Part shown: positions 9,921 through 63,418 of the stretch, piece by piece
Layout of the letters: the number at the start of each line of letters is the position of its first letter
Position numbering within the stretch: position 1 is the first letter of the stretch
From: Trichoplax sp. H2
Lineage: Eukaryota
DNA: 64,000 nt
Reading direction: 5' to 3'
Assembly (NCBI GenBank): GCA_003344405.1
Contig: NOWV01000161.1
Location: 62,001 to 126,000 of the forward strand
Notes under the pieces: generated by a model
What the model was told of the DNA's origin: nothing
Seen by the model: only the letters and a program-made list of their open reading frames with translations
Databases searched by the model: none
Made by a program: the position numbers and the translations under genes

Positions 9921-9986
9921 CGTACCGTACCGTATCGTACCGTTCCGTACCGTACCATTCCGTACTGCGATGGGACCGGTACGGTA
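9921..9986. repeat. (CGTAC)n pentanucleotide microsatellite just upstream of TAPT1
   Basis: Nine near-perfect CGTAC units at 9921-9965, followed by an inverted GTACGGTA copy. Confidence 0.85.
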
Positions 9987-29300: not shown

Positions 29301-32300
29301 GTTAAAAAATTCTAGTTGAATATTTACTAAATGCAGATAAATTAAGAGATACTTTGCAAAATAATTTCATTGTCATCGTAGCTTATAGTTAGTACAGATT
29401 CGGGTAGAATTATGAAGTAGATATGGTGGCTGTTTGACATTTTTAGACGGTCAATCGCGTAAAACAATTACTCGTATCATTTCTTACCTTGCTTAGTGTT
29501 AGTCATGGCAGAAGAAACTGAAGTTGTGACTAGATTGCAACCCTAAATTAATACCGTGAAGAAAGAATGGCATGAGTAAAAATGGCATAACTATAAAATA
29601 TTTTCCCAACCTATCTTACCTGAGCTGCTAGCGTTGCTAGTTTAGCAGCAATGAGTTGATCAATATCATTTTTTATATTGGTTAAATCTTGCATCTAGAA
29701 ATGAATGCAATTAAATGATTTATCGTGGAAACGTCTACATAAGATAGAACGCATCGTTCGCTTTAAAGTATACCTGAGAGAAATCTGCTGAAAATTGAGC
29801 TGTGTTAACATTGATTGTAAAATTAGAACAAGCATTGCCGCAAAATACGATAGAATTGGTAATGTTGGTTCTTGCATCCGCTAAGGTCTTGCTAATTTCT
29901 TGCTGTAAGCTGATCAATCGATTTCTTTGATGCATGATATTTCGTATGTCTGAACTAGTTTGGGCCATATCTAAAGGATTGGCACAATCATTTAAGAATT
30001 CAAGAAGCAAAGCGCGGCAATTTATAACGTGTTTTTGTCGATATTTATCATGATATACATCTTCCTATCTAGATCAATTAATTCAATAAATATACTACTG
30101 TTATTTATTTCCCCTTTTTTGTAGATAATTATCATGCTATACACTTTCCTATTTTGATTACTTAATTCAAGAAATGTACTAAAATTATTTACTCCACATT
30201 TTGGTAGGTATTCTTATGATCTCTGCGCGTACTAGAGTTATTACATGATTTGGTAGATATTTATCATCATCTATACTAACGTTATTTCACATTTTGCTAA
30301 ATATTTATCATCATCTATACCACAGTTATTTGACGTTTTGATAGATATTTATCATCATCTATACTAAAGTTATTCCACGTTTTAGTAGATATTTATCATG
30401 ATATACAGCGTCCTAACTCGATCATTTTCTAATCTACTTACTAATTTGAATATTCTTAACGTTATTGACAATGGTTTGTTCGTTAGAATGGCAAACAAAA
30501 TCGTTAATACTTGTAGGCAATCCTATAGATTTGATCCAATGTAATAGTAATAGTAAAATAGTTTTAAAAATAAAGAAAGCGAGTCATTTAGATGCTAGAA
30601 CGGCTATTTGTAAGCGCGTACTATCAGCTGTATTACAAGTTAATCAATTAAATCTATATACCATTAACTCTGACAGAGACTTGATCCAGCATGAAATTCG
30701 ATTTAGTAACCACAATGTCTTGAATTTGCTATATTGTAAAATATTCAATTTGTATAGTAAACCAATTAAATAAGCGGATTAGCATATGAAATGATAGAAT
30801 CAATTCTCTAATACTATATTCACATGATAGGCAATTGTAGGCTAAATTTTGAAAGCGATATTACAAATGAGCGTCAATAATGTGCGGTAATTACTAAAAT
30901 AGATGATGACAATTTTAGCGCCAAATAGATAGAACAGCAACATCCATAAATATCATCTGTCTCTACCTATACTAAATTTGCGGCATAAAATTGACATTAC
31001 TGTAGTGATTGAAATCGTTGCCAGGTCATATGGCATTCTATCGAGTAAATCACTCTTATATCACTGGAATAATCAGTCAATTCTACTAACATTTTTTCCT
31101 TTATCGACAAAACTTTGTACATCTGTTCTTGCTTTTTGAACTGTTGGTAGACCAGTGCTATAAGCATAGAGCAATTCGCTAACAGCAAAGATGGAGCAAA
31201 TCCCTCCGGCTCTGGCAAAGGAAATCGGAAAAGAATTTAGTATCAGACAACTTGTTTATAGCATTTTGTTTTAATGGCTTTAATGTAGGAATTAGAAAAA
31301 GCTAAAAAAAATTCTATCGCTAGCTATGAGCCACTGGCAGTTTTGGTTAGACGTTAATATATAGGAAGTTTTATATACCAGTAGAATAAAAATAGATGGG
31401 GCAATAGATCAGCTTATTAGTCTTGAACTGCTCAATGTAATTATTTAACATCGATAGCAAAGATAGATCGAATGAGTGCATCAGAGATTGCGATTTATCA
31501 AATGGGAAAATAAGAGAAACTTGATATAGAGTCAGGTGTTTGCAGAAGAAAATAATTCAAAAAAAAGACCAAGTGTCTATCTAATATCTTATTGCAACAG
31601 TCAGTCAGAAACCAACAGTTCTTTCGAAATGACTATGAACAAGATCCTTGAATGCGTCTTGTACAAATGGGATCATCATGGTAAAGAGGTATTTAGCTTA
31701 CTCTGCATGGTTAAGAATTAGGGGGTAAAAGGAGAAATGAATAAACTGATGCAGATGGAATAAATAGAGATGATAATAAGTTACTTTATTAAGGAAGAAT
31801 CTAGGAATAAGAACAGTAGAAGAATAAGCTGTATTGGTTAGAAAATGAACTACTATTTGCTTGATATCCTCATTCAACAGTCAGGAAGAAACAAGCAGTC
31901 CCTTGGATATGGCTGAGAACGATATCCTCATTACGAGTTTCTACCCATCACAAGTAAAAGGGAAGATGGAAATGACATTCATTTACTTACAAGATGAAGG
32001 TAGCAAATATAACCAACCAAAAGGAATAACAAAAACGCGTATATCTTTCAGTTTTAGGGGGTCTTTGAACCAATTCGCCACCACAATTTCCTTGACATCG
32101 GCAAATACAGAAAATGAGGCCGACAATTGGCAAAACGATACCGATGATTATTCCTAGAATGGCCATAGCCCAAAATGGTGCCTCGTATTCTGCAGCCTAG
32201 TGCATAGAAAACAATTTGCATTAATTCATTTTACATCACTTGGAATTTTCCTTCATCGACTACATTTATATCCGTTGCCTTGACTGGAGATTGAATGCAA

Positions 32301-34358
32301 TAAGTTATACAAGGATACTTTCTTTGCTTACCTGAGCTACTAATAAAGTAATAGTATCGCGGTTAAAGGTAAAACCAGTAGCACTACCAGTGGAAGGAAT
32401 AACTTTGGCACCTTTCAGGACGCTGTTGATTTGAGCTAATCATTAAGAATCAAGATTGAAAGAATGTTTAAAAGCGAAACGTTAAACATGGATTCAGTTC
32501 TAGTGATGATGAATAATTATAATAAAGTTTTTTTCGTTAGATTATAAAGTAGCTGATGATGGATTAAGAAGAAGGAAGATAGATCTTTGATATAGTTTAA
32601 AGGAAGAGGTAGTCAAGAAAGTTGTTCTTTAATACTATTATCTAATTAAAAACAAAAACAAAAGGTAGCCATAGAAAGTCTAACTGAATTACTCTTCTAT
32701 CCTTCACTTTTAGATAGTAAATTGATTGAAAGTGATATTTTATCAATTTTAATAATAACTTGTCCTTCGAATCAATATTGAAAGTAAAATGGCTTCATTT
32801 TCAATTTGAGTTCAAGTAATGTTCAACAGCTCCAGCTGGTAAATTAGAGTAATTTAAAATATTTATACTTAAATTCTTTCCTAAACATTAAGAGTAATTG
32901 TACAAAAATCAGCTTCGGATGATCACAACATAGTCGTCATTGCTTGAAAATTATTTATAATTTGCTACTACTCCGTTGGTTAAGACGCGTAAACTACTCT
33001 TCTTCAATATCAGATTATCGATAAAATAAAACTATCCATCTCTTTCTACCATATCGTTGTCATATTGAAATTTTAAACGCAGTAGTCTTTCCCATTTACG
33101 AGCTACATTTTTCTTTAATTGACATTGACTAATTGACTATTCTTTCTCCCTGTCGAGTTATCAATAAACAAAAACATCCATCTTCCTCTACAATATCACT
33201 GATATCTTACAATTTTAAAAACGGACGGGTTCGGTACTTTTATCGAGCTACAGTATTCCTACTTGAACTCTTTCCTAAAGGTTAAAACTACGTTCCAAAA
33301 AAAATCAGCTTGAGAACACTGCGCTAGCATCTCGTTGTAATGACTTGAAGAATCTCCACCATGGAGTACTACTCCATTGACTAATTGACTACAGTGCTCG
33401 TCCTCCCTTTCAATAAAGTAAAATAAAATGTCCATCTTCATGGACGATATCATATTGCAATTTTTAACGCGTAGTTTTCCTTATTTCCGCGCTACACTAT
33501 TCCTACTTAAACTCTTTCCTAAACGTTAAAACTGCTTATCCCAAAAATTAGCTTTAGAACATTGTACTAACATTTCATTGTAATCACTGAAAGAATCTCG
33601 ATGGGCTAATTGGCCATAGTACTTATCCCTCCAAGTTATCAATAAAATAAAATAATATCTTCATGGACGATATTGCTGTCATATTACAATTTTAAACGCG
33701 CAGTTTTCCCTATTTCCTAGCTACAGTATTCCTACTTAAACTCTTTCCTAAACGTTAAAATTACGTAGCAAAAAATCAGCTGGAGAACACTGTACTGTAC
33801 TATGTCATACTCTAACTTAAGAATCGCCATAGACTAATCAACTAAGGTATAGTACTCATCCTCCGTATCAAGTTAGCAATAAAATAAAATATTCTTCTCC
33901 CTTGAAGATATCACTGATATGTTACAATTTTAAAGTCAGTAACGTTTTTCCTATTTCCGCAGTCTTTGTTAGAAAGAAAGCCGAAAGTGATTATCCAACA
34001 TTTTCCTCTATGTAAAACTCAATTATCGCCATTATTTTTTTCTATTAAGAGAGAGATTGTTCTTAGCTATCATTAGAATCGATTGTATCAAGCACTTACC
34101 GTAAGGTAAATCGTTAGGTTGAAGAAAGAAAATGAAATCTTTGACCATTTTATAAAGATAGACGGTAACGACTTCCACTATAGGTGTAGTATCAGGATTA
34201 CTTTGAGGAGTTGGCATTGTTGGCAATTCTGCCCAAACGATTACACCATTCGGTTGGATATAATTTTGTGTCTGAGCTTGAACGACATAGTTGTAGGTAG
34301 AAGAGAGAAGTAGAAAGTACAAGACACCTGAGATAGCCTTAGAAAGATTAACAGCCAT
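23368..34358 (-). CDS. Prominin-family pentaspan glycoprotein, paralog A, with very long C-terminal tail
   Basis: Signal peptide MAVNLSKAISGVLYFLLL. TM1 is followed by the Cys-rich FCICRCQGNCGG, and TM3/4 by RTRTSNAGGHMLMA. TM5 reads NSYWFSIG...IPVIIMAIKFAKFLRIM. Four further exons (~25515-25561, ~25274-25318, 24403-24953, 23368-24272) splice on in phase. Confidence 0.9.
23395..23600 (-). repeat. Coding 36-bp minisatellite (12-aa PQPVRIMQQQTT-type repeat, ~5-6 copies)
   Basis: Repeating + strand unit of the type TGTTGCATAATTCGAACTGGTTGAGGTCTGGTTTGC. Protein reads QQTTPQPVRIMQ QQTRPQPVRIMQ QQTTPQPVQVLR QHATPQPVQVMQ. Confidence 0.9.
30237..30412. repeat. 44-bp minisatellite, 4 copies, in a prominin A intron
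   Basis: GTTATT....TTTTG.TAGATATTTATCATCATCTATAC units start at 30237, 30281, 30325 and 30369. Degenerate relatives lie near 30030 and 30183. Confidence 0.9.
32860..33960. repeat. Degenerate tandem array (~230-245-bp unit, 4-5 copies) in prominin A intron 1
   Basis: Anchor CCTACTT(A/G)AACTCTTTCCTAAA.GTTAAAA at ~33258, 33502 and 33732, degenerate at ~32865. A second anchor CAATAAA.TAAAAT recurs at ~33162, 33411, 33640 and 33877. Confidence 0.85.
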
Positions 34359-35199
34359 GATTGAACAGCGTTAGAAAATGTGATCGGAGAAAGAATAGAC
34401 GAAGAGAAAATGATTAATCTTGTTGGCAAAAGAAGAAGCAAATTGTCAATGTCAAAAAAGAGAACTTTATCCAAGTGGAGATCAAGGCACAGTTGGTAAA
34501 ATTTGTCTATCGCTTGTTAATGATTTTTTGCTTAGCAGTCTGTTATCCAAAACGTGTTAATCTTTCTTCTTTTGGATCTTCTTCCTGTCGAAGGATAAAT
34601 TGATGTTGATATCAAGATAATATTCTATCTCGATATTTTCCTTTTTTCACCAACTGCTTACCCTCGGCCAGGGCTATCAATTACATCGATGAAAGCAAGT
34701 CCTTCTCTCTTATTCTGTGTTTATTTTCTTTGGCGTGATCTTAGCAACGCCTCCTGCATGCATTTTTCTCTCAACTCGTTGAATAAAATGAACTCATTAC
34801 TATGGTAACTTATCAATGACGATATCACCATTAAGTCGCTAATCTGTTGCAATTATTCTAGCATCAATCGATTAGGGTATGAAGGACAATGTAAAGGCCA
34901 TGAGTAAAGCCTCCTTTCCAATTGATCCTTATTTGCTTTTTATTGTCCATTAAATCAATCAATGGACGCTTATGATTGGATTGTTATTTTAATATGAAAA
35001 TAGACCAAAATAAATGGCTGCCCATTTTAACTCCTTTTAACCAATCCAATCGTCGCATTGGATATTGAAATTGGATGATTCCATGCTATTCTATCGGGGA
35101 TTTTAGCGATTGATGGTAGGTAAGAGCTAAGATGAGCCGATGTCAATGTGATTTATCCTCCTATCGGCTCTTTTTTCCCCTCAATAAAAACATTCCACA

Positions 35200-36995
35200 T
35201 GAGTGATCATCATGGAAACTCGATAAAGTATCACGGAGAGGAAACTGGAAAAAGCAATATGTCCACTGCTTGTAGTATTCTTTGTACAAAGTCAATTCAT
35301 TCCTCTTCTCCGTGTAAAACTATATCTATAATTATAATTCATGCAAGATGTTTAAAGTATCTTGGAGACATTACTCTTATCGGAGGAGATTTATTACTCT
35401 TCTTCTCCAAACACGCGTAAAACTGCATCTGCAATGAAATAGAAAGTTCTATCATAGACTTTACTTACTCGTCTAGGCAGGTATAAACTGTCTCTAAGAC
35501 GTTATACGTAATCTTCTCATATGCACTATTTGTACTTTTCCCAGAAGACATTTACTATTCTTCTTCTCCAAGTAAAATTGCATATGCAATAAAACAGAGA
35601 GTTCTATCATCGACTTCTTTTACTCGTCTTGAGAGATATAAACTATCTCCGAGATTTTATACATGCTTAATCCATGGCACTATTTATAGTATTCTCTACA
35701 AGAAGTTCATTTATTCTTCTTCAGATTAAACTATAAGAGTGGCAATAATACGAGTAAAATAACCTCCAAGATGTACGTACCTCGGAGAGGAAATAGGTAA
35801 TGTTATATGCATTAGTTATACATCGTATTCTCTATAATAGTTCAATTTACCTTCTCCTCCAAGTAAAATTACATCATTTATAATAATAGAGCAACCCTTA
35901 TATAGTACCGTAAATACGAGGTCCATGCACTCTTCTTCTCCAAGTAAAAATTACGTTATCTGCAGTAATAGAATAGAATAGTATAACTTTGATAAAGTAC
36001 CCCGGACAGGGAATATGCGAACTTATATCTGTTACTATTAGTATTCTCTACAAGACTTCGATTTATTCTTCTTCTCCAGCTCAAACCACATCGGTAATAA
36101 TTACATTATAACAACCTCTATAGGGTACCTCGGATAAGAAATACTTATATGTATTATTTACTGCATTCTCTACAGCAGCTGGATTTACTCTTCTCCAGGT
36201 AAAACTACACCATTCAAAATAATGAAACAACCTGTATAAAGTACTACGGATAGCAAATACGCAATCTTGTGTGCATTACTTGTAGCATTCTCTACAAGAG
36301 ATCAATTTATTCTTCTTCTCCTGCTTACATCACATCAGTAATAATTATTTTAATACAATAACCTCGTTATGGTACCTCGGATAGGGAATACGTAATCTTA
36401 TGTTCGGTATTCTCCGCAGGATGTCAATTTATTCTTCCACGGGTAAAACTACGCCTTTCATAATACTAGAATAACCTCTAGAATTAACCTCGGATAGGGA
36501 ATACTTAATTGTATATGTATTACTTGTAGCATTCTCTACAAGTAGTCAATTTATTCTTCTTGTCCAGCTCAAACTTTATCAGTAATAACAATTATAATGC
36601 AACCTCTATATTAGGTACCTTGGATAGGAAATAAGTGATCTTATTCTCTACAGGTAAAAACTACATCATTCATAAATAATAATACAACAACCTGTATATA
36701 GTGTCTCGGACAAGGGATATAGAATCTCATGTTCATTACTTATAGTATAACTATAAGAAGTCAATTTATCCTTCTCCAGGTAAATCTACATCATTTATAA
36801 TAATAGAATAACCTCTATATAGTACTTCGGATAGGGAATACGTAATCTTACGAGTATTACTTGTGGTATTCTCCGCTGGAGGTCAATACACTTTTCTACT
36901 CCAGGTAAAAACACATCAGTAACAGTAATAGAATACGTCGTAGAAAATCTTCTATGAAACATCTCGGATAGAGAATACGTAATCTCATGTGTACT
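35200..36995. repeat. Degenerate satellite-like array (~115-130-bp unit, ~13-14 copies) upstream of prominin A
   Basis: Anchor GTACCTCGGATAGGGAATAC variants at ~35777, 35997, 36125, 36241, 36372, 36487, 36615, 36702, 36822 and 36961. TTCTCTACAAG and TTCTTCTCCAG recur with the same period. Confidence 0.9.
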
Positions 36996-37979
36996 ATTTT
37001 TAATGGACCCATAAAAGAGGCCTTATAGAATTAATTGTTAATGCAGTCAATCAATTGAATAATAAAAGTGTCAATTATCCAACATCCATTATATTGAATC
37101 ATTTTTGATTGGCATGTCTATTTATAATAATATTACTCTTATTCAATGACATCATTGCATCTTGATCATCATTATGAAGGTTTAGACTATGAATTTATTC
37201 TATTTCTCTGATATATACAAATCGATATCTTACTGAAGGCAAAAAACTGTCGATATGATTGATTAACATCTCATTTGCATCATCCATTCTTCCTACCACC
37301 TCATCTCCATAGAATTAACTAAAGTATGTCTAGGACTTTAGGTATTGTATAAAATAATTTACCATATTTGGTTATTATTGTACCCATTAAATAGCTTTTG
37401 TTGCAAAGGCATCGGTAATCGATTTTAAATATATCCTAATGACGTAGTGGTTATAAGGCAAAACGATGCTCTAAGTAGATAGGTCTGGTTTGCTACTACT
37501 AATACTAGTACCAACTAGTCGTTGCAGCTAGAATGATAGGCAAAACAGTCTGGATGGGCTATAGGTATGCATATTGAACTATTATAGTATAGGTATGATC
37601 ATGACCTTTACGATGGATGGGAAAGAGAACAGATGATATTGATTGTAAATGGTATCAGTATGCTTGTAAATAGGTTGCAAGCATATTCTCACCGAGTACT
37701 GCTATAGATGTGGCCATGATAGTATTTATGAGCTAGCTATGCCGGCTGTGATGATACACAAGAGAGTATACAAGTCTTTCCGCGCTAAAATCACTCATTT
37801 CGCCTTATAGCTGTATGGGAATTAAACTACCTTGGCTCAATTGGTATAGGTAATCCATTAATTCTATAGAGATATGATTACCTTAAATGATGCAAAACTC
37901 TGTTCTCTCAGTCGCTGCTACTATATTATCTAGTGTCTGGTGTTTATAAGGGACACGTAAAAATAAATCACAGGAATAA

Positions 37980-38525
37980 GGTTTGCATGCTTGATTATAT
38001 ATACATACTCGTATGTATATAAGCCTATTAAATATAATATAATAGCTAAATGTCATATCGATCATATAAATTGACTTTATTGACTATTAATGTAGGAATA
38101 GAATCACAGCAATGATGATATGCAAGATGGCATATACAATATTTAATCACACCTAAGCAGTACGTGAATATAAGGCATTCATGCTTGATTATAGCTGAAT
38201 CCCATCTCGATCAGATAAATTGACACCATTGACTATTATTGCAGGAATAAAATTACGGTGATGACGATATGTACTTGAGCTTATAGAGTAGATTTTAATC
38301 ATACCTAAACAATACACAGATACGAAGCTTTCATACTTGATTATAGCTGTATCATATCTCGATCAAACAAATTGATACTATTGACTATTATTGCAGCAAT
38401 GAAATCACAACTATGATAGTATTTACGAGAGCACATACAAGAGATTTAAATATGCCTAAGTGAAATACGGGCGTAAGATGTCAAGGCTTAATTGTAGCTG
38501 AATGTCATTTCCATCAGAGAAATTA
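37980..38525. repeat. Degenerate tandem array (~150-bp unit, 3+ copies)
   Basis: CTTGATTATAGCTG at ~38184 and 38336, degenerate at ~38487. AAATTGA...ATTGACTATTA.TG.AG.AAT at ~38068, 38217 and 38369. Confidence 0.8.
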
Positions 38526-41500
38526 GCAGTTAGAGCTTTGCAAATAACGAGCCATTTCTGAATTGACTACTATCCACGTAATATACTTTTGATTTACTGC
38601 ATAAAATAAAACATTGACCGCGTATGTTACAGCGTTATAAATAATGAGCCGATTTTTAATTTTATTACTATGTAAGATACTTTTAGTTTACAACACGAGC
38701 TAAGGCGTCGGTCGAGATTCAATCGTATAACTTCATACTGAAAAATTCAAGTGTGGATTATCGCTGGCTAAAACACTACTATGGAGGTACATGCACTGAC
38801 CATCTCTGCTTTAGAAGGAGTTTCATTATTCGTAACATCTGACAACGTACGGTGTAAAAATTATAATTTAAGAGTATCTGTATACCTTTGTACTAACAAG
38901 GTAGAAGAAATTTTCTATATTATAAATAAATCATCTATTGCCCAAATTCTATATCATTACAGAATGCGACGGATGTTAGAACATCAACTTTGCAATATAG
39001 GACAAAGTCATCTTTATTGCTAGCTAATGATGCAAATAGAGAATCAATTACCTTATCTATAATTTTTAGGATTTGCTTGCAATAAAGCAATAATTCATTC
39101 CTGTTTTAATTAGGTCTTTATTAGCTGTTTTAATTTTAAATTGAATTGATTTCTTAATAATATTTTAATAGATAACGTATTGATTATTAACGGAACAAAA
39201 CATACTAGAATGGATCAAAACTATTTTAAAAACATTTCAATTTTTCTGTTTTGCTTGAAATACCATTAGAAACATTTTAATTATTTACTCACAGTATTAT
39301 AAGCTCCTTAGTTCATAAAATATTTTATTCGGTCGTTTTCCAATCGGTAATAATGCTATAGCATACTGTACATCATTCTCTGGAAATAATCAATAGTAAA
39401 ACTTTCATTAAAAAAGAAGATACGAATAAAGCCATAGGCATCATATTCCGTAGTTAATATTAATTCTTGTTATCTTTCAACTTAATTTATCCATTTCTCA
39501 TTATATATCATGTAGTTATTTTTTTATCAACAAGTAATGGGAAAGCTCTGTTATAGACGGATAGCTTATTGTGGTAAATATATATTTGTATCAGCAGTAA
39601 TTAAAATCCCTATGGTCCTGTAGTAAATATTATAAATACTTGAAACAACAAGGAAATGATTGTCTTGAAAGCGATCTCAAAATGCAAAATGGTTGCTCCC
39701 TTCTATGCACTCCTATTCACAATCATTCTTCAGAGTTCTTATAAAATTATAATCAGCATACTTAACGAGTAAAATAGCCTAATGATGATAACCTGATTGA
39801 CGGATTCAGATATAACAGCAACTATATAGAAATTGAAATCAATAAACAATCATTAATTTACGATTAACTGAAAATTGATAAGCGGAAAAATGAAAACAAC
39901 TCCAGAAAACATTAAAATCCATTATAAGCATAGCTAAGGGCGCATAATTGATGATATCCTCAAACTCGTAATCTTTTATAGAGTTACAGTAGACTATGCA
40001 TAAAAATATTGTAAAGTAAAAAGTACAAGTACATCCTATAAGCAAACTATCATAATGCATAAAATATAAATAAGAGGAGAGAAACAGTCATTTCCCTTCA
40101 TATCATCCAACTCTATTCACTTCATGATTAAAATTGCTACCTAAATAAAGAAAAATATTTAAGAAGTGGAAAGAATATGGTTTTCACATGCCACAGAATT
40201 TTATATATAAATATAGTGCACGGTAATATAGATCTGTTTTATAGGTTAATTGGGAAGTTTGATTTAATTACCGAAGTCTATGCTACTACAAAAGTAAGAC
40301 AATCAAAGTAATTAAAAAGTTTCTTCCTACTCAATCTGTGCATTGATAGCTATACTGTATAGAAATCCTTTGGTTTTTATTTTTAAATTTTCCAAATATA
40401 GAAAATTTACAGAATTAATCATATTAGAAAATGTAAAATATTTTGACGTAAATTAGCTAATTACATCAGTTATAAAAACAAAAGCAATCGTTTTCAATTC
40501 TAAATTAGGATATTTTTAGCTTAAAAATGGCAATAATATCCTATTTTGCTATTAATTTTGTTTCCATTTAAGAGAATGGAAGAAAATAATCCATTTATCT
40601 ATATCTAGCATTCTGATCAGTTGGCAGATATCGAATCATGAAAATACGACGGTGCATTTATTTAACTAAATATGCCAGTAAAAATAATTTATACACAATT
40701 GGATATCATTTAATTTAGTAATTTGTAGCATAGTTCAACTCTCTTTAATTGAGATTGATTGAATTGGATTATTTAACTTAATTAGTAAGGATAAAATAAT
40801 AAACGAGAGTTTGTTATTTAATCTTTAGTTCTTCCGCACAAACTAGCCTAAGTATAATAGAATAAAATGTTTTTTAAATTTATTTATGAGTCGATCATTT
40901 CGGCCAAACTAGGATGCCATACTGAATCTATAGTATTTTCTTTTAAACTAATGCTATGATATTCGATCCTATTTATCTCTACGTACGCATGTATTTAATT
41001 TACTATTTTAAATTGATTTGTCTCTTTTGCACAAGATACTCACGGATTAAAGCCTAAATAGTAGGCAGAAATAAATAGCCAATATAATTTAGTACAAGAT
41101 CTTATATTTTAACTATTTTGGAGAGACTTCTATCTGAGTAGGCAATCTGATATTAAACGAACTCTGCAGCAATAGTCTAATCAAGATAAGCCAATGCAAC
41201 TAATTTATAATCATTTCCAATATTACTTACTTCCATCACACTAGAAAGAAACACCAAATTAGTGCACGTTTTATCACTATTTGAGAGGGTTGGTATATTG
41301 TATCATCTCTAATCCTTATTGTTATGCCAAAATAAATATATTTAATTATAAGGATATTATAAATAGGGGATTCGGTCGTTGGTCTTTGCTCACTTTATTC
41401 TACTTTGGCTAATTGAAAATAAATTGTACTTCAATTAGTCTGTTGGATCATGCAATTGATCATTAAATAGAGCATTGCTTAGCTCTGTTACTTTCTCTCG

Positions 41501-41633
41501 AAAGTTATAACGTCTTTGTTGATAACCGTTGATATCGAGTCCTATTTGCAGACTACCTTCATGATTTGGCGTACTGAATATGATAGCTATGAGACAGTAA
41601 CATCATTTTTGATAATCATTTCTACACAGCTTA

Positions 41634-42475
41634 ATAGCTTACATAGAGTAAAATGACAGAATAGGTATGCTTTGATATGGACTGTATTGAAAAGAATTCA
41701 TTCTACTGTACCTTGAATTTACTCATTCTCTGAATAAGATAAGTTTAGATATGTATTAGATATGATTTATATTCGAAAGGTTCTGTCTTACCGCATCTTG
41801 ATTATAACGCATTCTTTGGATTGAAGATATTCAGCTATATAAATGAAGAAATCTTTTTAATCTTAATAACTTACATAGAGTAAAATAGTAGGATAGGTAG
41901 GATGTTGCACTATGAACTGTATTGGAAAGAATTGATTCTACTGTATTTTGATTTTACTCATTCTCTGAATAAGATAAATTTAGACATATATATTTTGTAT
42001 TTAGATACGGTTTGTATTTAAAAGGATCGATCCCACCGCATTTTGATTCAACACATTCTGCGGATAACAGTAGAGTATTCTTGATAGCATAACATCCAGA
42101 AATAGATCGTTATAAACTTTACTGACATTGATGATGAATAAGCTGAATATAAGTTGTATTATATTTAGATAGGGTCTGCGTTGAAGAGAATCAAAGTATA
42201 GAGTATGCTGACGTTTCTCATTCTCACGATAAGGATCAAGTATTCTTTGATAGCATTGCATCAAGAAATCAACCGTTGTAATCTTTACTAATATTGATAA
42301 CAAGTAAGCTTGAATTTAGACATACTTGTGTTATATTTAGAGAAGGTATGCGTTGGAAAGGATCAAAGGCTACTGTATCTCGATTTTAGTCATTCTCAGA
42401 ATGACCTTAACGTATTCTTTGATAGCAAGGCATAAAGAACTAAACTGAAATTATCTTTGCTAGTATTGATGACGT
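41634..42475. repeat. Composite degenerate tandem array (~233-bp x2, then ~170-bp x2.5, sharing a motif)
   Basis: CTTACATAGAGTAAAAT...TTTACTCATTCTCTGAATAAGATAA occurs twice (~41638, ~41870). GTATTCTT(T)GATAGCA occurs at ~42075, 42240 and 42412. Confidence 0.8.
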
Positions 42476-42924
42476 TAAAAGGAAATTTCTTTGGCGTATC
42501 GTATCCAATTAACATAGTGTATTTAATAAAGTAATTTTTCTATTAATATTGATAATTAACTTTAGATGATTAATATTATTCTATCACATCTCTCTATATG
42601 ATACTTTATTCAATGATATAAGCTATCTTTTATGCACAGTTGCAGATATAAATCTGCTGGAGCATTCATTAAATTATTCCTTCGTTTAATTTGAGGTCAA
42701 TTGGTGTTAATAATTTATAACTCATCTTTTAATTCGGAATTCAATCATATCTAGAACATCTTTAAAATAAAGTCTTTCATAGACTAACCGCAGACATGAA
42801 CTCATTCGATTGAATTCGAATATTGCCTCCTGATTGAGCTCAATTGTAGTATTCCTAGCCCATCTCTTAGGTATCAAGATGAAGATAGAGGGTATATTAA
42901 GAAAATAGAACGGAGCAATTGAAC

Positions 42925-44245
42925 CATCTAGCTACCCTCGATTGAAATTCTATCTTAAAACAAATACGATTGAACACTTGAATACGGTATTCTATCCCTT
43001 GATTTGACCTAACTTCACTATCTTTTAGCTTCAATACTTTATCCATTTTGATGGGATCCAGCTCCCCTCGGCTGAAACTCTATCCTAAAACAAAATACAA
43101 CTGAGCAATTAAAGTATTCTTCAATTCGATATTCTATCCCTTGATTCGACCTAATTTCACTGTCTGTAGCTTAGAATCTTAATCTATTTGGACGGGATCC
43201 AGATACTCTCGATTGGAACTCTACCCTAAAACAAAATGCAACTAAGCAATTGAAGTATCCTTCAATTCGATATTCTATCCCTTGATTCGACCTAACTATC
43301 TGCAACTTAGACACTTAATCATTTTGATCGTTCTTCAATGCTATATTTTAACCCTAGTCCTCTGTAGATGTATCTCCATTATAACTTTAGAAACTCAGTC
43401 CATTTGGAAGGCCAGATACAACTGAGCAATACAACCACTCTTCAACCCTCATTATTCTATCCCTTGATTGAATCTCAATCAACTTTTCATTTCGCAATCT
43501 TTCTTAATTTCTTTTAGAAGAGATCCAGCTCCCTCGACTGCAATTCTACCGTCAATAAAATACAACTGAGCAATTGAAGCATTCTTCAATGCGATATTTT
43601 AACCCTAATCATCTACAGAGGTATCTTCATTACGACAATAGAAACTTTATCGATTTGGAAGGGGCCAGATACAACTGAGCAATGTAATCACTCTTCAATA
43701 CTGTATTCTATCCCTTGATAGAATCTCAATCAACCTTTCATTCGCCTGTCTTCTCAATCCATTTTAGAAGAGATCTAGCTCCCTCGACTGCAATTCTACC
43801 CTAAAACAAAATACAACTGAGTAATTGAAGCATTCTTTAATGCGATATTTTAACCCTAATTATCTACAGAGGTAACTTCATTACGACAATAGAAACTTCA
43901 TCGATTTGGAAGGGCCAGATACAACTGAGCAATGTAATCACACTTCAATGTTGTATTCTATCCCTTGATAGAATCTCAATCAACTTTTCATTTGCCTGTC
44001 TTTCTCAATCCATTTTAGAAGAGATCTAGCTCCCTCGACTGCAATTCTACCCCCAAAACAAAATACAACTGAGCAATTGAAGCATTCTTCTATACGATAT
44101 TCTAACCCTAATTCTGTGTAGAGGTATCTTCATGACGATTGTAGAAACTCCATTGATTTGGAAAAGGCCAGATACAATTAAGCAATGCAACTACTCTTCA
44201 ATACCATATTCTATCCCTTGATTGAATTTCAATCAACTCTTCCTT
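42925..44245. repeat. Tandem array with ~141-bp monomers grading into a ~251-bp higher-order unit, upstream of prominin B
   Basis: ATTCTATCCCTTGAT at 42989, 43131, 43272, 43454, 43705, 43955 and 44208. ATACAACTGAGCAAT occurs twice per ~251-bp unit. Confidence 0.92.
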
Positions 44246-45387
44246 CGGTATCTTGGTGAATTAATAGCTCGCCATTCTAGTCAAGTCAATTATATTTAAT
44301 TAGAATGACAGAAAATGGGATTGGCTTGGTTATTCTTGATGATACTGTATTCAAATCCAATTGAATTGTTTTTATTCTGTTAGCATGATGAAAGCTAATA
44401 ACGTCTATTATGGCTCCAATGTAAATCATCATGACAATAGCACGAGGAAAGAAAAATAAAATCCCATTGCTATACATTGCCAACTTAACTTATTATGTAA
44501 TCATTTAAGTGTGATGAAGAAAACAACTTGCAATCATTGTTTCCCTAACGTCAGGAGTTATTGATTAAAGGAAGAAAAAGGAGATGCTAGCCTAGTCAGG
44601 AAGAAAAATAACCTAGACAATCGCCATTCAATCCAATAATTTGCTTCAAAAGACAACAACAATGATTACATTGGGAAAAGATTCCATTCTTGCTGAACAA
44701 TATCCAATGTATGTATAATTAATTTATATCGACAATTCAACAGTATACAAACTAAGTCAAGATCGATTTGAATTGCAATGGATGAGAATAAGACATGAAC
44801 CACTTAAACCTTTGTCGCCAAACTATACTAGCTTACAGACATCACAAGGAAAACTACAACACAACAGCTTGTTTTTCTCCTCATTTTCCAACATGCTAAT
44901 GATGGACAAAAGAAAGGCCTAACGCCATTTTTTTTTCATGAATATTGACGTCGGGATAGACTATTGTTCTTATCCTACGGTGTTGCTCATCATTGGCAAA
45001 GTGATTACCGTAGGCCATTTTTCCTTCATTTATTTCTCTTCTTCTCCCTTGACGCAACGCTTTATATATTACGATTGAATATCTACTGCAATTCATTACA
45101 TCGGAATAGTGTAAATTAATTAAACGATTAAGTTCGACAAAAAGAAAAGCTAAATTGACTCTATTCCACCACGACAAGAGGAAAAAAATTGCCATCATTT
45201 TTTTCTCTTAGATATCCCATTTGATGCTTATTAACCATTGCAACCCTCTCTTCTTCTCTTGATTGGCATTACTGATTACCACTGCAGAAGAAGACTTCAA
45301 TTTTAACTAACTAATCTATTTCGCCATTATTATTAACCATTTATATCTTGGAGAAAGTTACTTAACATAGTTAATATCACTTCAATC

Positions 45388-48300
45388 ATGTCCAAATTTC
45401 AAGTCGGGATTTTAACCTTCTTGGTTTTGGCTATCCACACGGTATACGGACAAAATACGACAACCGTCAATAATGGCGTCATTACTTTTAGCCAACTACC
45501 AACCATTGGGACTACTCAATCCAATCCCAATGATTATGTACCAGAATCCAATTTAGCCACCTTATATGCTATGGCAAAAGGCTTTACCAATGCCCTCATT
45601 CCTGGTCATCTACCCTATAGTAAGTACTTAATGCTAAAAAAAGTGACTTTGCCTATTTCCATCGCTGATCCGTGATCGATTTGGACACCACTTGCTGTCT
45701 ACAGTACATTTACCCAACAATTTCATTTCCGACAATTTCCGTCAATCCTTTACCCTTCTCGTGTTTGTAAACCTTCATCAATTCGGTCAAGAAGATCAGA
45801 TATGGCCCGTTATTTCTACAGTGACTAACTGACTAACTGTTCCACTACAGTAGCACAGTTTAAGTATAACCATCTACTTTATAATGTATTTTTTTCATTC
45901 TTTTTCCTATCCTCCTATTCCCGTTAATCAAGAGGATAGTGTAATTAACCAAAACTTTCATCTTTTAATTGACAACAACGGCACTTTAAATAATAATGCG
46001 GGGCATCTCTCTATTTCTCTCCTCTTCACGTTGACTATCCTTCATACCCGTTAAACTCAGAAGTATCAAGAGAAATAAAGATGCGATAGTCAATTTCATT
46101 TTTAAAACCCTACCCATAACCAAAATAGTGTCGTGAACGAAAGTTTTTATCCTTTTGATCCACAACCACGGCACTTTAAATAAATAATATTCCGGGATAT
46201 CTCTCCATTTCTCTCGTCTTCATTTTGTCTATCGGTCGCGCCTGTTCAACTTAGAGATACCAAGAGAGAGATGAAGATGCGATGGTCAATTCTAATTTTT
46301 CTTTCCTGCAAAATCAACTACGCACTTTAATTTCAAAATAATTTGCAAGGGGAAATACCAAAGTAGAGCTCGCTTCAAAATATGAATGCAGGGTTATCCT
46401 CGTTCTATTCTCTATCAGCAATCAATTTCACGGATTTTTGTAAACATAAAAATAAGCGTTCCATGTGGAATAATACTTTCTTAACTGCCTTTCCAAATTA
46501 ACAACGAATACCTCTAGGCCCTATAGCAATAATTAATTGTCATCCTTACGATATGAAATGTTTATTATCTTACGTTGGGCATATTTTATCCTCCTTCCAT
46601 TCGCTTTCCATCCCGTAGATTATTGTTAACATAAAAAATGGACCTTTAAAAGCAGAAATATACTTTCTAAGCTGCCTTTCAAAGTTAACAACCATGGCTT
46701 AGAGCAATAAATTGCCGTCGTTACTATGATGAGAGATGTTCAATATCTTACTTTGAACATTTTTTATCCTCTTTCCATCAACCTTCTATTCTGTAGATAT
46801 TCGTCAATATTAATTTGATCATTAAAAGTAGAAAAAACACTTTTTAAGCTACCTTTTAAAGATAATGACTCTGATTTACCGCAAGAATTGGACGTAGTTT
46901 ATATCACTGGAGATGTTTACCATCGTATCAAGATATCTTTTCTCCTCTTTCCGTTAGCCTTTACCTTCCTGTGTTCCATAGCCTTAAATTGATCATTTCA
47001 ATGTAGAATAGCCTTTCTTGGCCATCACTACAGAAATGGATTATTTAAAGGATAACGTTTCTCCTTTTTCCGTTAGCTTTCATTATGGTGGGATTCGTTG
47101 ACATTAATTTCACCATTCAATACAGAAAAAGATTTCCTTGGCTAGCCTTGATAGTAAATATTAATGGCTTATTCTAACACTTTACTGTCGTTAATATCAC
47201 TCCAAATGGTTCGTATTTCATGAACACCTTTCCTTCTGTCTCTGCTAGACTGCAATTTCACGTAGATTCATTAACATCAAATGCATCTCTAAATACCCTA
47301 AATTTTCTTGCCTGTCTTTCCAAGTTGACAACAATGGTCCGTTCCAATAGTAAGTTTACCTTAGTTAATATCCACGGCAATGTCCATTAACGCCTGTGCG
47401 ATCAATTTTTGCTAACTTTTTGATCCGCTTCGTAAGCATAAACCTGGAAAGGGACACGTTATTAGGCAAATGAATCTGAATTTCCTTTTTACCGTAATCG
47501 TGAACCAACCTAGACCGAACGCAAGAGCCATGATTTATTACGATATCATATTACCGATAAAACCCTAGAGTGCTATAAATAATTTTAATAGCAACAATCA
47601 AAATTTAGTTCCGATCGACTGCCAAAAATTAAACATCAAAAATCCATCCTGTCCTATTGAGTTAACCCTTTGACAACACTTTACCCATTCTGCAAGCGTT
47701 TTCCTCTCTTTTACTACGTCCAAAACCTACCGTAGTCTATACGTAATGGATTCTATCGATAGAATCTATAATTTCTACTAATTTCAAGAGGACACTTATT
47801 TCATTTAAATTTACCTACTTCAAATTAAGCTCATAAACCAATTGAATTCATTATTTAGTCGAATTGCATTCTGTATTCAATCCAACATCTTCACTCAATG
47901 ATTTTCTCTTCTATTTAGCGTTCATGGTCGGTATCCTCAGCAATTTACAAACTCCTAATGGCATCTTAACCTATTTGACGACAAATTATCATTCGGTAAG
48001 ACATGGATTCAAATGAAATTCAATGGCAATATTGATTCCTGTATATTTAAGCGTAACTTGTAGTTCTTTATTTTTACTTGTAAACCCTTACCCAAATGAA
48101 ATGGATTCCAATATAATCAACAACAATATTGCCATAGTTAACCTCAAAAGAAGTTGGTTTACTCGCTTGTGTGGCTATCGGACTCCTAATTGGTGTTCTT
48201 ATGCCTATTGTTGGATTAATATTTTGTTGCTGTCGAATGTGTGGTAAATGTGGTGGTGCCATGGTTCAAACCCATAAAAAGAGATCTCATTGCTACTGCT

Positions 48301-61300: not shown

Positions 61301-63418
61301 GTCCGTGCTTTAATCAATTCACGGAGGACACCTAGGTATTAATAAAGTAAGCAAGACAGCATTATTATACAGTAGTAGAAGTAATGTACATTGCATGATT
61401 ATTGATCTTTAAAATATCGTGGTATATAGATATACCGCAAGCATACCAGGAATAATTTGGTTAGTATTAACAGAAAAAGACATTGTTGTTTTTCACTATT
61501 ATAATAATATCACGGCGAATGCTCTAAAAATAATAATCGTCTCCACTTAACACTGGATAATCAATGTGTCGTTTGTCGTTTGATATTTCATTCTATAGCC
61601 CAAACTTTGTGTTGTACTCAATGCGGATGGACATGATTACTGTAGAATATTACAATACTATCATTTTATTAGCTTTATTAGGGCTTGCTAAGGTCCTAGC
61701 TGTAGTTATCTTCAAAACTGTTTGCTAAATTAATATACGTAAAGAGTCAGATAGGTTAACAGATCTACCAAATATTGTCATCATGCTTTTCATCTGCTCC
61801 TGCTAATGCTAGGGTAAAGTAATGAATACTTCTAACTGACTCTTGACATTCTGGGCAGTACTGTAAGATGATACGGGGGGGGGGGGTTATGTCAGCATTC
61901 TATATCGGAATAGAAATTTTAAAATTAAACCAATTTATGAATGCCACCATACTCAATGTACATTTCACAGCAACTTGGCGTAGCCTAACATCACATTTAA
62001 GCGACACATGATTCCCTGCGCGAAGATAATTTGTCTTCAAAAGCAATCAATATTGAATTTCAATTTTCTACCTTCAAAATTAAATTTTTTTGAGAGTATA
62101 GAAAAGGATTTTAGATGTCCAGTATGAAGATTGATAAAGAATAACATTTATTATTATTATCATCCCGATCGGGGACAGACATCACTTTAACTTTATTATC
62201 CATCAATTTTTTTTCTTTTCTGTCCCGACGTAACCACAATTCGTCATTTATAAACAAAGTCTCGTTAACATGTTAACATCCTCCAGCTTCAACACTTTCA
62301 TATTCAGTTTGATACTAATTCATAGACAAAGGATTGGGTCAGACAGTGTATATGGATAGAAAGCCGGCGAAATCAAGTCGGTTGCTATATTGCACACTAG
62401 ACAAGGACATTTTTTTATTCATGTTGTCGATCAGGAGAAAACATTTCTAATTAACGTGGAAATGTACAGGAGTGTAGAAAGGAATCAACTTCTGCTGATG
62501 TCAAATAAGCAAATATTCATCACAATAGAACGCCAAGATTACTTTCAATAGTGGACGGACAAATATCGTATACTTATTAAAAACGTGATCCAACAGTAAT
62601 TAAGTACTGTATAGTCAATTGTGGTGGCCGGATATCAGTATGTTTATGTCTACTAATGAAATGATTTTATCATTGGGATCACAATTGCAGTTTTACTCCT
62701 GTATGTACGCGTACAGTTGCTAACCTTCTCTTACCAACAAATGCAACAGAATCTGCTATATTGGTTGGTAAAAAATAGATTTGTTATTTAATTCTTGAGA
62801 TCAAAGTAATATCCAATTGGATGAAAGGTCAACAATGTCAATAACAACAACATTAAAGATAAATCAATGATGATTTCGATGTCAAAGTGGATCGATCTTG
62901 GCCCTCTCAAAAATGAATTCATTTCTACTGTATGAAACCAGTCATTTCACTAGTCCTGAATCAAATAATCAAATCGATTCTAATTGTAGTCATTGTGAAA
63001 TGAAGAGGAAAATGGCAATTGTACTAAGGAACTCGCTTGCAAGATGATCATTTGGTCATTTAGGTTGATGACTAGGAATTAGGGATGGATATTCAGTATT
63101 GATATTGTACTTACCGTAAGGCAATTCTTGAGTATGGATGGCATTGATAAATCCACGAGCGATATTATAAAAAAAAGCCATGCCAGTTTCCAATGGAGTT
63201 GTGGCAGTATTGGTCACGATTTGATCCTGAGTCGGTAACTTGGAAAAGAGTGAGCTGGAAGATGAAGTGGTTATGGTAGTCGTATTGGCTGTCATGCTAT
63301 TGCCACTTGGAGGAGTTGTGGCTCCTGTCGATTGTCCTAAGCTCAATGTCGCTAACAAGGACAGTGTTAGCAGGGCATGAAAATAAAATGGTTGCATTTC
63401 GCTTGATTTCAATGGCAA
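55369..63418 (-). CDS. Prominin-family pentaspan glycoprotein, paralog C (3' end approximate)
   Basis: Signal peptide followed by a Thr/Ser-rich segment. Motifs are FYNIARGFINAIHTQELPY, FCTLRCCGMCGSEM, PTERGLMSNAGGIFLMA, ISNDVGKCFVLRNVYD and NGVWCAVGICAICFIPNIIFGVKLAKYYRRM. Exons are secure down to ~55652. The last micro-exon and the stop at ~55369 are tentative. The start may be 63418 or the next Met (MQPFY). Confidence 0.88.

What the first reader, a model, noticed from the sequence alone, without database searches (positions are those of the whole stretch)
32860..47350. Near-symmetric set of distinct tandem arrays around the divergent prominin A/B first exons
Each first exon is sandwiched between an intron-1 array (A 32.9-34.0 kb, B 46.0-47.3 kb) and an upstream array ~1-2.6 kb from the ATG (A 35.2-37.0 kb, B 42.9-44.2 kb). 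A second tier lies ~3-4 kb upstream (38.0-38.5 and 41.6-42.5 kb). Units are 115-250 bp, roughly nucleosome scale, and I see no homology between families. The ~1 kb next to each ATG has no array, and prominin C shows none. Inference: repeat-built regulatory or insulating architecture separating two head-to-head paralogs, or a local duplication hotspot.
Basis: partly seen in the sequence, partly recalled or inferred. Interest (0 to 1): 0.7.

Follow-up and report, generated by a model that had tools for sequence, protein, structure and literature searches.

The report
Clustered tandem repeats flanking prominin promoters
Seven unrelated blocks of head-to-tail repeated DNA really do crowd around the starts of two back-to-back prominin genes in the tiny animal Trichoplax, but they look like ordinary home-grown repeat DNA, and only one of them hints at a regulatory job.

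Summary
The window is Trichoplax sp. H2. Between 32857 and 47393, seven unrelated tandem-repeat families (units 109-251 nt, 2-13 copies, mean unit identity 0.60-0.78) cover 6830 of 14537 bases (47%). They sit in intron 1 of both divergent prominin genes and in two tiers of the 10.4-kb spacer between them. TRF alone sees 4 of them (15.6% of the region against 1.8% in the rest of the window and a published 2.4% genome-wide).

Each family is confined to its own spot. No cross-family or inverted homology was found, nor transposon ends, transposon protein remnants or Rfam hits. DNA contig depth is single-copy in two organisms. Prominin C has an equally long first intron with no repeat.

My reading is that these are old, decaying minisatellite-like arrays born on the spot in the only large unconstrained spaces of the locus. 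The near-symmetry would follow from two paralogous, array-free promoter/exon-1 cores. Only B_up1 shows motif-like constraint: a 14+16-nt module is 99% conserved against 58% in its flanks. An insulator role is untested and the literature disfavours it. The scan earlier called a single-locus 330-bp repeat elsewhere in this genome ordinary (e1-7319761).

The parts
32436..34099 (-). Intron 1 of prominin A (1664 nt); 65% of it is the A_int1 array
   Evidence: An RNA-run contig joins 34100 to 32435, with CT..AC on + (GT..AG on -)
32857..33940 (.). A_int1 array: 5 units (one partial) of ~230-245 nt, mean pairwise identity 0.70
   Evidence: TRF misses it
34100..34661 (-). Prominin A exon 1 (ATG at 34358; the mRNA contig's 5' end is at 34661, followed by adaptor letters)
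35191..36985 (.). A_up1 array: 13 units of ~122 nt with a 244-nt higher-order period, mean identity 0.67
38041..38489 (.). A_up2 array: 3 units of ~150 nt, mean identity 0.70; a small extra repeat lies at 38529-38691 (offset 97)
38490..41629 (.). Array-free, AT-rich centre (GC 0.285) of the divergent spacer. It includes 40094-41353, which contigs of one organism label both hold and skip
41630..42474 (.). B_up2 array: two 232-type units then 165-172-nt units of the same family, mean identity 0.69
   Evidence: TRF misses it
42927..44264 (.). B_up1 array: 141-type units (42927-43327) then 251-type units (43331-44264). It carries 10 copies of TACAACTGAGCAAT (6 exact) and 7 exact copies of TATTCTATCCCTTGAT; 6 of those 7 lie 34-36 nt (start to start) after a copy of the first motif
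45063..45619 (+). Prominin B exon 1 (ATG 45388); the gene matches Prominin-1-A of Trichoplax sp. H2 (P0001)
45620..47918 (+). Intron 1 of prominin B (2299 nt, GT..AG); 57% of it is array
   Evidence: RNA-run contig joint
45936..46299 (.). B_int1a array: 2 units of ~185 nt, identity 0.78
46439..47393 (.). B_int1b array: 6 units (two partial) of ~170-185 nt, mean identity 0.60; unrelated to B_int1a
61333..63112 (-). Intron 1 of prominin C (~1780 nt, bounds from protein alignment only): long like those of A and B but without any repeat; serves as a contrast

Best explanation
The region holds seven independent, locus-specific minisatellite- or satellite-like arrays. Each arose in place by tandem duplication of a 110-250-nt piece of local non-coding DNA. 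The likely mechanism is replication slippage or unequal exchange. Two arrays then re-expanded as dimers, giving the 244- and 251-nt higher-order periods. Most have since decayed neutrally.

They cluster here because this gene-dense locus has few large stretches free to absorb such duplications: the first introns and the 10.4-kb spacer between the divergent genes.

The near-mirror layout follows from two paralogous genes that each keep a constrained, array-free core of about 1.3-1.7 kb (promoter plus exon 1 and the intron's 5' end), with free DNA on both sides. It need not be a designed architecture.

Shown: the arrays exist; they are unrelated to each other; they are single-copy; they lack transposon marks; they are old; both organism labels share them. 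Inferred: birth in place by slippage or unequal exchange, neutrality, and the reason for the symmetry.

Exception: B_up1 keeps a paired short motif nearly invariant, so it may have been co-opted as a cluster of protein-binding sites.
For: Existence and extent.

Each family is confined to its own spot in the 64-kb window, on both strands searched. No cross-family hit falls below E 0.62, and no cross or inverted BLASTN hit involves the arrays.

Not dispersed. With contigs laid at >=80% likeness, DNA depth in array-rich bins equals that in array-free bins: 31.9 vs 30.2 in X2 and 30.0 vs 29.5 in X7. Only 7 of 69 (X2) and 5 of 64 (X7) laid contigs were under 95% alike.

No transposon marks. 0 of 57 ORFs of >=45 aa from the spacer and both introns pass a Pfam cutoff. 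No terminal inverted repeats were found. Rfam gave 0 hits. Published transposon content in T. adhaerens is 0.13%, against 2.4% minisatellite (PMC2871265, Findings read).

Old and decaying. Mean unit identity is 0.60-0.78. Five of the six families tested show no conserved block beyond a column shuffle, or only a marginal one.

No extra conservation over the short term. Contigs of the other organism label differ from the window by 1.43% and 1.07% over array pieces (35757-36455, 41751-43148) and by 0.68-0.95% over non-array pieces. The promoter/exon-1 piece 33731-35098 differs by only 0.22% (table 8).

Minisatellite behaviour. One contig of X7 joins 33497 to 33727, skipping 229 nt, which is one A_int1 unit. 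Depth in that bin falls from ~31 to 19.3.

A long first intron without repeats in prominin C shows that the arrays are not needed for the family's gene structure.
Against: Seven births in 14.5 kb, against three small arrays in the other 49.5 kb, is a strong local excess. TRF coverage is about 6.5 times the published genome mean (PMC2871265). A purely neutral model explains this only by pointing to free space, which is partly circular because the arrays themselves make the space.

B_up1 is not decaying uniformly. It has a 16-nt block invariant in 7 of 7 units (run test p=0.0002; window test p=0.003). Between unit types, 254/256 block positions are identical against 650/1119 elsewhere.

A_int1 is marginal (p 0.016-0.045).

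In run X16, whose library type is unknown, contig depth falls with distance from the two transcript starts (Spearman -0.77) and stays raised over A_up1 and B_up1. This would fit promoter-centred open chromatin, though GC bias (rho +0.37) is not excluded.

Most of these arrays have more copies (5-13) than the '<4 copies for 94% of types' reported genome-wide (PMC2871265).
Confidence: 0.55

Rival explanations
1. Repeat-built cis-regulatory DNA. The arrays, or at least the promoter-near ones A_up1 and B_up1, are homotypic clusters of transcription-factor sites that drive or tune the two highly expressed prominin paralogs. Duplication multiplies a binding module.
For: B_up1 repeats a module of TACAACTGAGCAAT followed 34-36 nt later (start to start) by TATTCTATCCCTTGAT. 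Six such pairs are present. The blocks are 99% identical between unit types while the rest is 58%, and the tests are significant.

Both genes give deep mRNA contigs (143.7 and 228.7 in X23).

A and B lack the (ACAGT)n promoter element that prominin C has at 63872-63935, so they may rely on other upstream DNA.

X16 depth is raised over both upstream arrays. Distal enhancers do exist in placozoans: 241 promoter-enhancer contacts are reported (PMC12221973, passages read).
Against: Only 1 of 6 families tested shows motif-like constraint. A_up1, B_up2 and B_int1b do not. No motif is shared between the A-side and B-side arrays beyond a 6-mer expected by chance. Short-term divergence over the arrays is no lower than in the flanks. 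The library type of X16 is unknown. The B_up1 motifs occur nowhere else in the window, so no wider use of them was seen.
Confidence: 0.22
2. Inherited mirror. An ancestral inverted duplication copied promoter, exon 1 and flanking arrays together. Each array has since been kept as an array by turnover (concerted evolution) while diverging beyond recognition from its mirror partner.
For: The layout is roughly mirrored. Upstream tier 1 lies at 530-2324 vs 799-2136 nt from the transcript ends. Intron arrays lie at 721-1804 vs 873-2330 nt. Both tier-1 arrays have a ~122-141-nt base unit and a 244-251-nt higher-order period. All three paralogs share a long first intron.
Against: No residual homology between mirror partners, even with profiles on both strands. 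Five of seven arrays are C-rich on the same (+) strand, not on opposite strands as an inversion would give. The second tiers barely overlap in distance (3380-3828 vs 2589-3433 nt). The B and C proteins are only 27% identical overall, and A and B exons 40-53%, so the duplications are far older than the 60-78% unit identities. Most arrays show decay rather than homogenisation.
Confidence: 0.08
3. Insulator or boundary. The arrays bind an architectural protein and separate the regulatory domains of the two head-to-head paralogs, as DXZ4/FIRRE-type tandem arrays do in mammals.
For: Position between two divergent paralogs, and repeated units that could multiply a binding site. T. adhaerens has strong insulation boundaries, 38% of them at loop anchors (PMC12221973, passages read).
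Against: The same paper reports no evidence of sequence-defined insulated domains in early-branching animals. It ties placozoan loop anchors to a promoter motif that resembles Mutator terminal repeats, not to tandem arrays (passages read). The seven families share no motif. Two of the array zones are inside introns, not between the genes. The B_up1 motifs are not in that paper's readable supplements (2 of its files could not be read).
Confidence: 0.04
4. Transposon debris. The arrays are internal tandem repeats of decayed Helitron, MITE or Mutator-type elements.
For: Such elements often carry internal arrays (recalled). Helitron, Mutator and other DNA transposon fragments exist in Trichoplax (PMC2871265). 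Mutator copies are frequent at placozoan promoters (PMC12221973).
Against: Single-copy depth at >=80% likeness in two organism labels. No second copy of any family in the window on either strand. No inverted repeats around any array. 0 of 57 ORFs have a transposon domain. No look-alike was found in the scan's other windows (low power).
Confidence: 0.04

Closest known systems
Trichoplax minisatellites catalogued with Tandem Repeats Finder (Wang, Zhang, Meyer, Bao 2010, Biol Direct 5:18, PMC2871265; Findings section read, supplement 6 is a figure only)
   Same: Non-coding head-to-tail repeats in a genome that is very poor in transposons (0.13%) but has 2.4% minisatellite DNA. Four of the arrays here are found by the same program.
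   Different: This is a cluster of seven unrelated families covering 47% of 14.5 kb. Units are long (109-251 nt) and most arrays have 5-13 copies, whereas the paper reports mostly short units and <4 copies for 94% of types. Three arrays are too decayed for TRF.
Satellite-type higher-order repeats formed by unequal exchange (general model; recalled, no paper read)
   Same: A_up1 (122-nt unit, 244 period) and B_up1 (109+142-nt subunits, 251 period) show units that diverged and were then amplified as dimers. Unit lengths are near nucleosome scale.
   Different: The arrays are tiny (0.4-1.8 kb), sit in euchromatic gene flanks and introns, and show no ongoing homogenisation except in the 251-type part of B_up1 (up to 96% identity).
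Tandem-repeat enhancers, e.g. the MORC3-repressed tandem repeat enhancer near interferon (PMC13373173) and the TCF25 intron-1 repeat acting on MC1R (PMC13743518); both seen only as search listing and start of abstract
   Same: Repeats lie in an intron or upstream of a gene, and each unit could carry a binding module. B_up1 has such a conserved module.
   Different: No binding, accessibility or expression evidence here. Only one of the six families tested shows constraint.
Boundary-forming macrosatellites DXZ4 / FIRRE / ICCE (PMC6985041, PMC6125249, PMC5899154; search listing and start of abstracts only)
   Same: Tandem units that could multiply an architectural-protein site between domains.
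   Different: Those units are kilobases long, bind CTCF and act over megabases. Placozoans are not known to have CTCF (recalled), and no shared motif or contact data support such a role here.
(ACAGT)n promoter microsatellite of Trichoplax (PMC2871265; earlier scan note e1-7272381)
   Same: A repeat class tied to gene 5' regions in the same genome. It is present upstream of prominin C in this window.
   Different: That repeat is a 5-nt unit shared genome-wide. The arrays here have 109-251-nt units unique to this locus, and A and B lack the ACAGT element at their promoters.

Membership tests
Locus-specific minisatellite / satellite-like tandem repeat | Head-to-tail copies of one non-coding unit | tested here: met
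   TRF, self-BLASTN and nhmmer profiles agree. No ORF with a family match, and no prominin-like coding hit inside the arrays.
Locus-specific minisatellite / satellite-like tandem repeat | Confined to one locus, not dispersed | tested here: met
   Every profile hit lies in its own array within the 64-kb window. DNA contig depth equals that of the flanks at >=80% likeness in two organism labels. Copies under 80% alike elsewhere in the genome cannot be excluded, because no genome is held.
Locus-specific minisatellite / satellite-like tandem repeat | Length variation between individuals by whole units | tested here: inconclusive
   One X7 contig skips 229 nt (one A_int1 unit) and depth drops to match. 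A second joint skips 130 nt in A_up1 with no depth drop. Contig-graph shortcuts across a 34-nt exact repeat are not excluded.
Transposon-derived tandem array | Many dispersed copies of the unit or its carrier | tested here: not met
Transposon-derived tandem array | Terminal inverted or long terminal repeats, or transposon protein remnants, beside the array | tested here: not met
   No inverted BLASTN hit involving the region. 0 of 57 ORFs pass a Pfam cutoff.
Tandem-repeat enhancer / homotypic binding-site cluster | Short motifs conserved well above the rest of the unit | tested here: inconclusive
   Met for B_up1. Marginal for A_int1. Not met for A_up1, B_up2 and B_int1b. A_up2 gave mixed results (p 0.0018-0.14) with only 3 units.
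Tandem-repeat enhancer / homotypic binding-site cluster | Open chromatin or enhancer marks on the array | tested here: inconclusive
   X16 contig depth is raised around both promoters and tier-1 arrays, but the library type is unknown and contig depth is a poor measure.
Tandem-repeat enhancer / homotypic binding-site cluster | Conservation at the orthologous locus of distant relatives; effect on expression | not testable with these tools
   No placozoan genome is held. Only near-identical runs could be laid.
Insulator / boundary tandem array (DXZ4-like) | One architectural-protein motif repeated in the units, and contact insulation at the site | not tested
   No motif is shared among the families. 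Micro-C data exist for T. adhaerens (PMC12221973) but could not be viewed at this locus.

The most novel reading that the evidence does not exclude
In a nearly transposon-free early-branching animal, new cis-regulatory DNA for two divergent, highly expressed prominin paralogs was built by local tandem duplication. B_up1 is a working array of six to seven copies of a two-part binding module (TACAACTGAGCAAT, then TATTCTATCCCTTGAT 34-36 nt later), held invariant while the spacer DNA decayed. The other arrays are older or retired versions of the same process. That would make tandem duplication, rather than transposon co-option, a route to enhancer birth in placozoans.
Probability: 0.18. Interest if true: 0.55.

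Novelty: new member of a known kind. Interest (0 to 1): 0.3.

Why it matters
If the arrays are neutral, the locus simply shows that non-coding DNA in the compact, transposon-poor Trichoplax genome grows by local tandem duplication rather than by mobile elements. It also shows that such growth piles up next to constrained promoter cores.

If B_up1, and perhaps A_up1, proves to be bound and accessible, it would be a concrete, testable case of an enhancer assembled by duplication of a binding module in an early-branching animal. Distal regulation has only recently been demonstrated in this group. The published ATAC, ChIP and Micro-C tracks can settle this.

Tried and rejected
Whole-genome background: no genome is held for this window. 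TRF density genome-wide and a BLAST of each consensus against the genome could therefore not be run, and only published totals were used.

RNA: no RNA holder was listed for the spacer. In X23 most array bins had no cover. This is no evidence on expression.

Protein word search with the full prominin B returned only itself. The HMMER library search gave prominin C (P0003) but no record for prominin A among 151 proteins. I did not date the duplications with a tree.

The scan's earlier notes, looked up by sequence, by relatives and near this place, gave nothing.

A metagenome scan for the B_up1 module gave 0 matches. Its motifs are not in the readable supplements of PMC12221973 (2 files unreadable). 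Supplement 6 of PMC2871265 is a figure without numbers, so the genome-wide share of units >=100 nt is unknown.

Rfam gave 0 matches at E<=0.1. Pfam on 57 ORFs gave only 3 sub-threshold chance hits.

A shared GGATAG 6-mer occurs in A_up1 (+ strand) and B_up1 (- strand): 47 in the window against 21.5 expected. I rejected it as evidence of kinship, because the excess is just two arrays each repeating one founder 6-mer.

The 1.26-kb polymorphic centre piece has no terminal inverted repeats.

A first run of the self-repeat control timed out and was repeated with fewer resamples.

A literature search for 'Trichoplax' with 'prominin' gave 0 papers. 'Trichoplax' with 'minisatellite' gave 2 papers, only one of them relevant.

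Full report
**What the window is.** Exon 2 of the plus-strand gene is 100% identical to Prominin-1-A of Trichoplax sp. H2 (P0001, 907 aa, Pfam PF05478). tblastn of P0001 places prominin B at 45388-54240 (+). It places weaker paralogous exons for prominin A on the minus strand (34346 down to ~25741) and for prominin C on the minus strand. P0003 (854 aa) maps to C, with its ATG at 63397.

RNA-run contigs fix the 5' structures:
- A: exon 1 is 34661-34100 and intron 1 is 34099-32436 (1664 nt).
- B: exon 1 is 45063-45619 and intron 1 is 45620-47918 (2299 nt, GT..AG).

The distance between the 5' ends of the two mRNA contigs is 10,401 nt. These are contig ends, not mapped transcription starts.

**Checking the observation.** TRF at default settings reports four arrays in the region: 36032-36633 (period 244), 38042-38459 (152), 42977-43297 (141) and 43331-44247 (251). 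It reports nothing in the two introns or at 41.6-42.5 kb, even at score 30.

A self-BLASTN of the whole window finds 52 direct near-diagonal hits, 46 of them inside 32860-47350. nhmmer profiles iterated from seed units then give seven families:
- A_int1, 32857-33940
- A_up1, 35191-36985 (13 units)
- A_up2, 38041-38489
- B_up2, 41630-42474
- B_up1, 42927-44264
- B_int1a, 45936-46299
- B_int1b, 46439-47393

Together they cover 6830 of 14,537 bases (47%). That is 65% of A's intron 1, 57% of B's intron 1 and 43% of the spacer.

Outside the region the same BLASTN finds only three small arrays: 11.4-12.4 kb, 19.6 kb and 30.0-30.4 kb. TRF coverage is 15.6% inside and 1.8% outside. The published genome mean is 2.4%, with 9208 minisatellites in about 95-104 Mb (PMC2871265, Findings read). 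By my own hand arithmetic that rate predicts about 1.4 TRF arrays of any unit size per 14.5 kb, against 4 seen (Poisson P about 0.05). This figure is uncorrected for the many windows the scan reads.

**Are the families related, dispersed or mobile?**
- No BLASTN hit at E<=0.01 links any two arrays on either strand.
- With nhmmer --max, the best hits outside a family's own array have E 0.62 and 0.78.
- B_up2's two unit types are one family, and so are B_up1's.
- Every profile hit in the 64-kb window lies in its own array.
- Contigs of DNA runs from two organism labels, laid at >=80% likeness, give the same depth over array-rich and array-free bins: 31.9 vs 30.2 and 30.0 vs 29.5. Few contigs are under 95% alike (7 of 69; 5 of 64).
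- 0 of 57 stop-to-stop ORFs of >=45 aa pass a Pfam cutoff.
- Rfam finds nothing, and no inverted repeats flank any array.

The 'dispersed transposon fragments' refutation is therefore not met, within the limit that copies under 80% alike elsewhere could not be searched for.

**Age and dynamics.** Mean pairwise unit identity is 0.60-0.78. Only the 251-type units of B_up1 reach 0.96. Contigs of the second organism label carry all arrays and differ from the window by roughly 0.2-1.4% per piece (table 8):
- array pieces: 1.43% (35757-36455) and 1.07% (41751-43148)
- non-array pieces: 0.68-0.95%
- promoter/exon-1 piece 33731-35098: 0.22%

So the arrays long predate the split of these lineages. On this coarse measure they evolve no more slowly than their flanks, while the promoter cores are conserved.

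A_up1 matches better at offset 244 than at 122. B_up1's 251-nt unit is two diverged subunits. Both are the usual signature of unequal exchange.

One X7 contig joins 33497 to 33727, which is one A_int1 unit, and depth falls from ~31 to 19.3 in that bin. This is probably a one-unit length variant, although a contig-graph shortcut across a 34-nt exact repeat is possible.

**Is there any sign of function?** I asked whether units decay evenly. Column-shuffle tests on six families gave these results:
- B_up1: a 16-nt block, TATTCTATCCCTTGAT, is invariant in 7 of 7 units (p=0.0002; 14-column window p=0.003).
- A_int1: marginal (p 0.016-0.045).
- A_up2: mixed results (p 0.0018-0.14) with only three units.
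- A_up1, B_up2 and B_int1b: nothing.

In B_up1 a second block, TACAACTGAGCAAT, occurs 10 times (6 exact). Six of the seven exact copies of the 16-nt block start 34-36 nt after the start of a copy of it. Between the 141-type and 251-type units, 254 of 256 block positions match against 650 of 1119 elsewhere. These pairs are not independent, and the blocks were chosen after seeing the alignment. This is the one real hint of constraint.

I recall that CAACTG fits Myb-type and E-box-type sites, but no tool tested that. The motifs occur nowhere else in the window. They are also absent from a metagenome scan and from the readable supplements of PMC12221973.

In run X16, whose library type is unknown, contig depth falls with distance from the two transcript 5' ends (rho -0.77). 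It correlates more weakly with GC (rho +0.37). It is 6-12 over A_up1 and B_up1 and 0 over 39.4-40.6 kb. This is suggestive of promoter-centred enrichment but cannot be interpreted without knowing the library.

**The symmetry.** Measured from the transcript 5' ends:

| Tier | A side (nt) | B side (nt) |
|---|---|---|
| Upstream tier 1 | 530-2324 | 799-2136 |
| Upstream tier 2 | 3380-3828 | 2589-3433 |
| Intron arrays | 721-1804 | 873-2330 |

The layout is similar but not exact. Five of the seven arrays are C-rich on the same + strand (skew -0.15 to -0.30), whichever gene they flank. The combined one-sided p is 0.023 and is post hoc. That argues against inheritance through an inverted duplication and against a gene-oriented design.

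Prominin C has an equally long first intron (~1780 nt) with no internal repeat above a Markov resample: 22.0 bits against a resample mean of 21.6 and maximum of 23.8. C alone has (ACAGT)n upstream, at 63872-63935.

The simplest account is this. Two paralogs have similar constrained cores, and free DNA on both sides has repeatedly absorbed local duplications.

**Comparison with what is known.** The arrays are members of the minisatellite class already counted in T. adhaerens (PMC2871265). What is unusual is their clustering, unit length and copy number.

Tandem-repeat enhancers and boundary macrosatellites are functional analogues (search listings only: PMC13373173, PMC13743518, PMC6985041). 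Membership in either class is unproven.

For insulation in particular, Kim et al. report no sequence-defined insulated domains in early-branching animals. They describe placozoan loops anchored at promoter motifs that resemble Mutator terminal repeats, plus 241 promoter-enhancer contacts (PMC12221973, passages read).

**Verdict.** The locus is an unusually dense cluster of ordinary, old, home-grown tandem repeats, with one candidate regulatory array (B_up1). Interest is modest.

Noticed in passing
window 40094-41353: In organism-B run X2, one contig holds this 1.26-kb AT-rich piece (depth 12.5) and another joins across it (depth 18). Together that is about full depth, so it looks like a heterozygous insertion/deletion or a replaced haplotype segment in the middle of the spacer. 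Several loose contig ends cluster at 39.35-40.7 kb in three runs. The piece has no terminal inverted repeats.
   Followed up: partly
window 63872-63935 (also 48-57, 10602-10611, 60565-60654): (ACAGT)n-type repeats, the known Trichoplax promoter microsatellite, lie 475-540 nt upstream of the prominin C start codon. They are absent from the promoters of A and B. There are 20 matches to ACAGTACAGT with <=1 mismatch, against 3.45 expected.
   Followed up: partly
window 32436-34099, 45620-47918, 61333-63112: All three prominin paralogs have a long first intron (1664, 2299 and ~1780 nt). The other introns seen in RNA joints are 118-779 nt. A long intron 1 seems to be a family trait that does not depend on the arrays.
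   Followed up: partly
window 33497-33727 and 36491-36622: Contigs of run X7 (same organism label as the window, another study) skip 229 nt (one A_int1 unit, with a matching depth drop) and 130 nt (about one A_up1 unit, no depth drop). These may be copy-number variants or contig-graph shortcuts.
   Followed up: partly
window 32857-47393: Five of the seven arrays are C-rich on the + strand (GC skew -0.15 to -0.30) regardless of which gene they flank. The two middle-tier arrays are not (+0.03, +0.16). Combined one-sided p is 0.023, post hoc.
   Followed up: partly
window 42307-42499: A 193-nt low-depth (2.8) contig of the RNA-guessed run X23 lies inside the B_up2 array. Faint depth (0.5-1.3) also appears at 37.0-38.2 kb. 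This may be background DNA or weak non-coding transcription.
   Followed up: no
window 11397-12420; 19592-19765; 30031-30427: These are the only other tandem repeats of this kind in the window: a pair of diverged ~430-630-nt offsets at 11.4-12.4 kb, two 84-nt units (94% alike) at 19.6 kb, and 84/44-nt units inside prominin A, probably within one of its introns.
   Followed up: no
window 23392-23575 and 9921-9965: A 36-nt periodic repeat (4.8 copies) lies inside a 317-aa minus-strand open frame (23368-24321) and is probably a coding repeat. Nine copies of CGTAC at 9921-9965 recall the GTAC-core pentamer arrays noted elsewhere in this genome.
   Followed up: no
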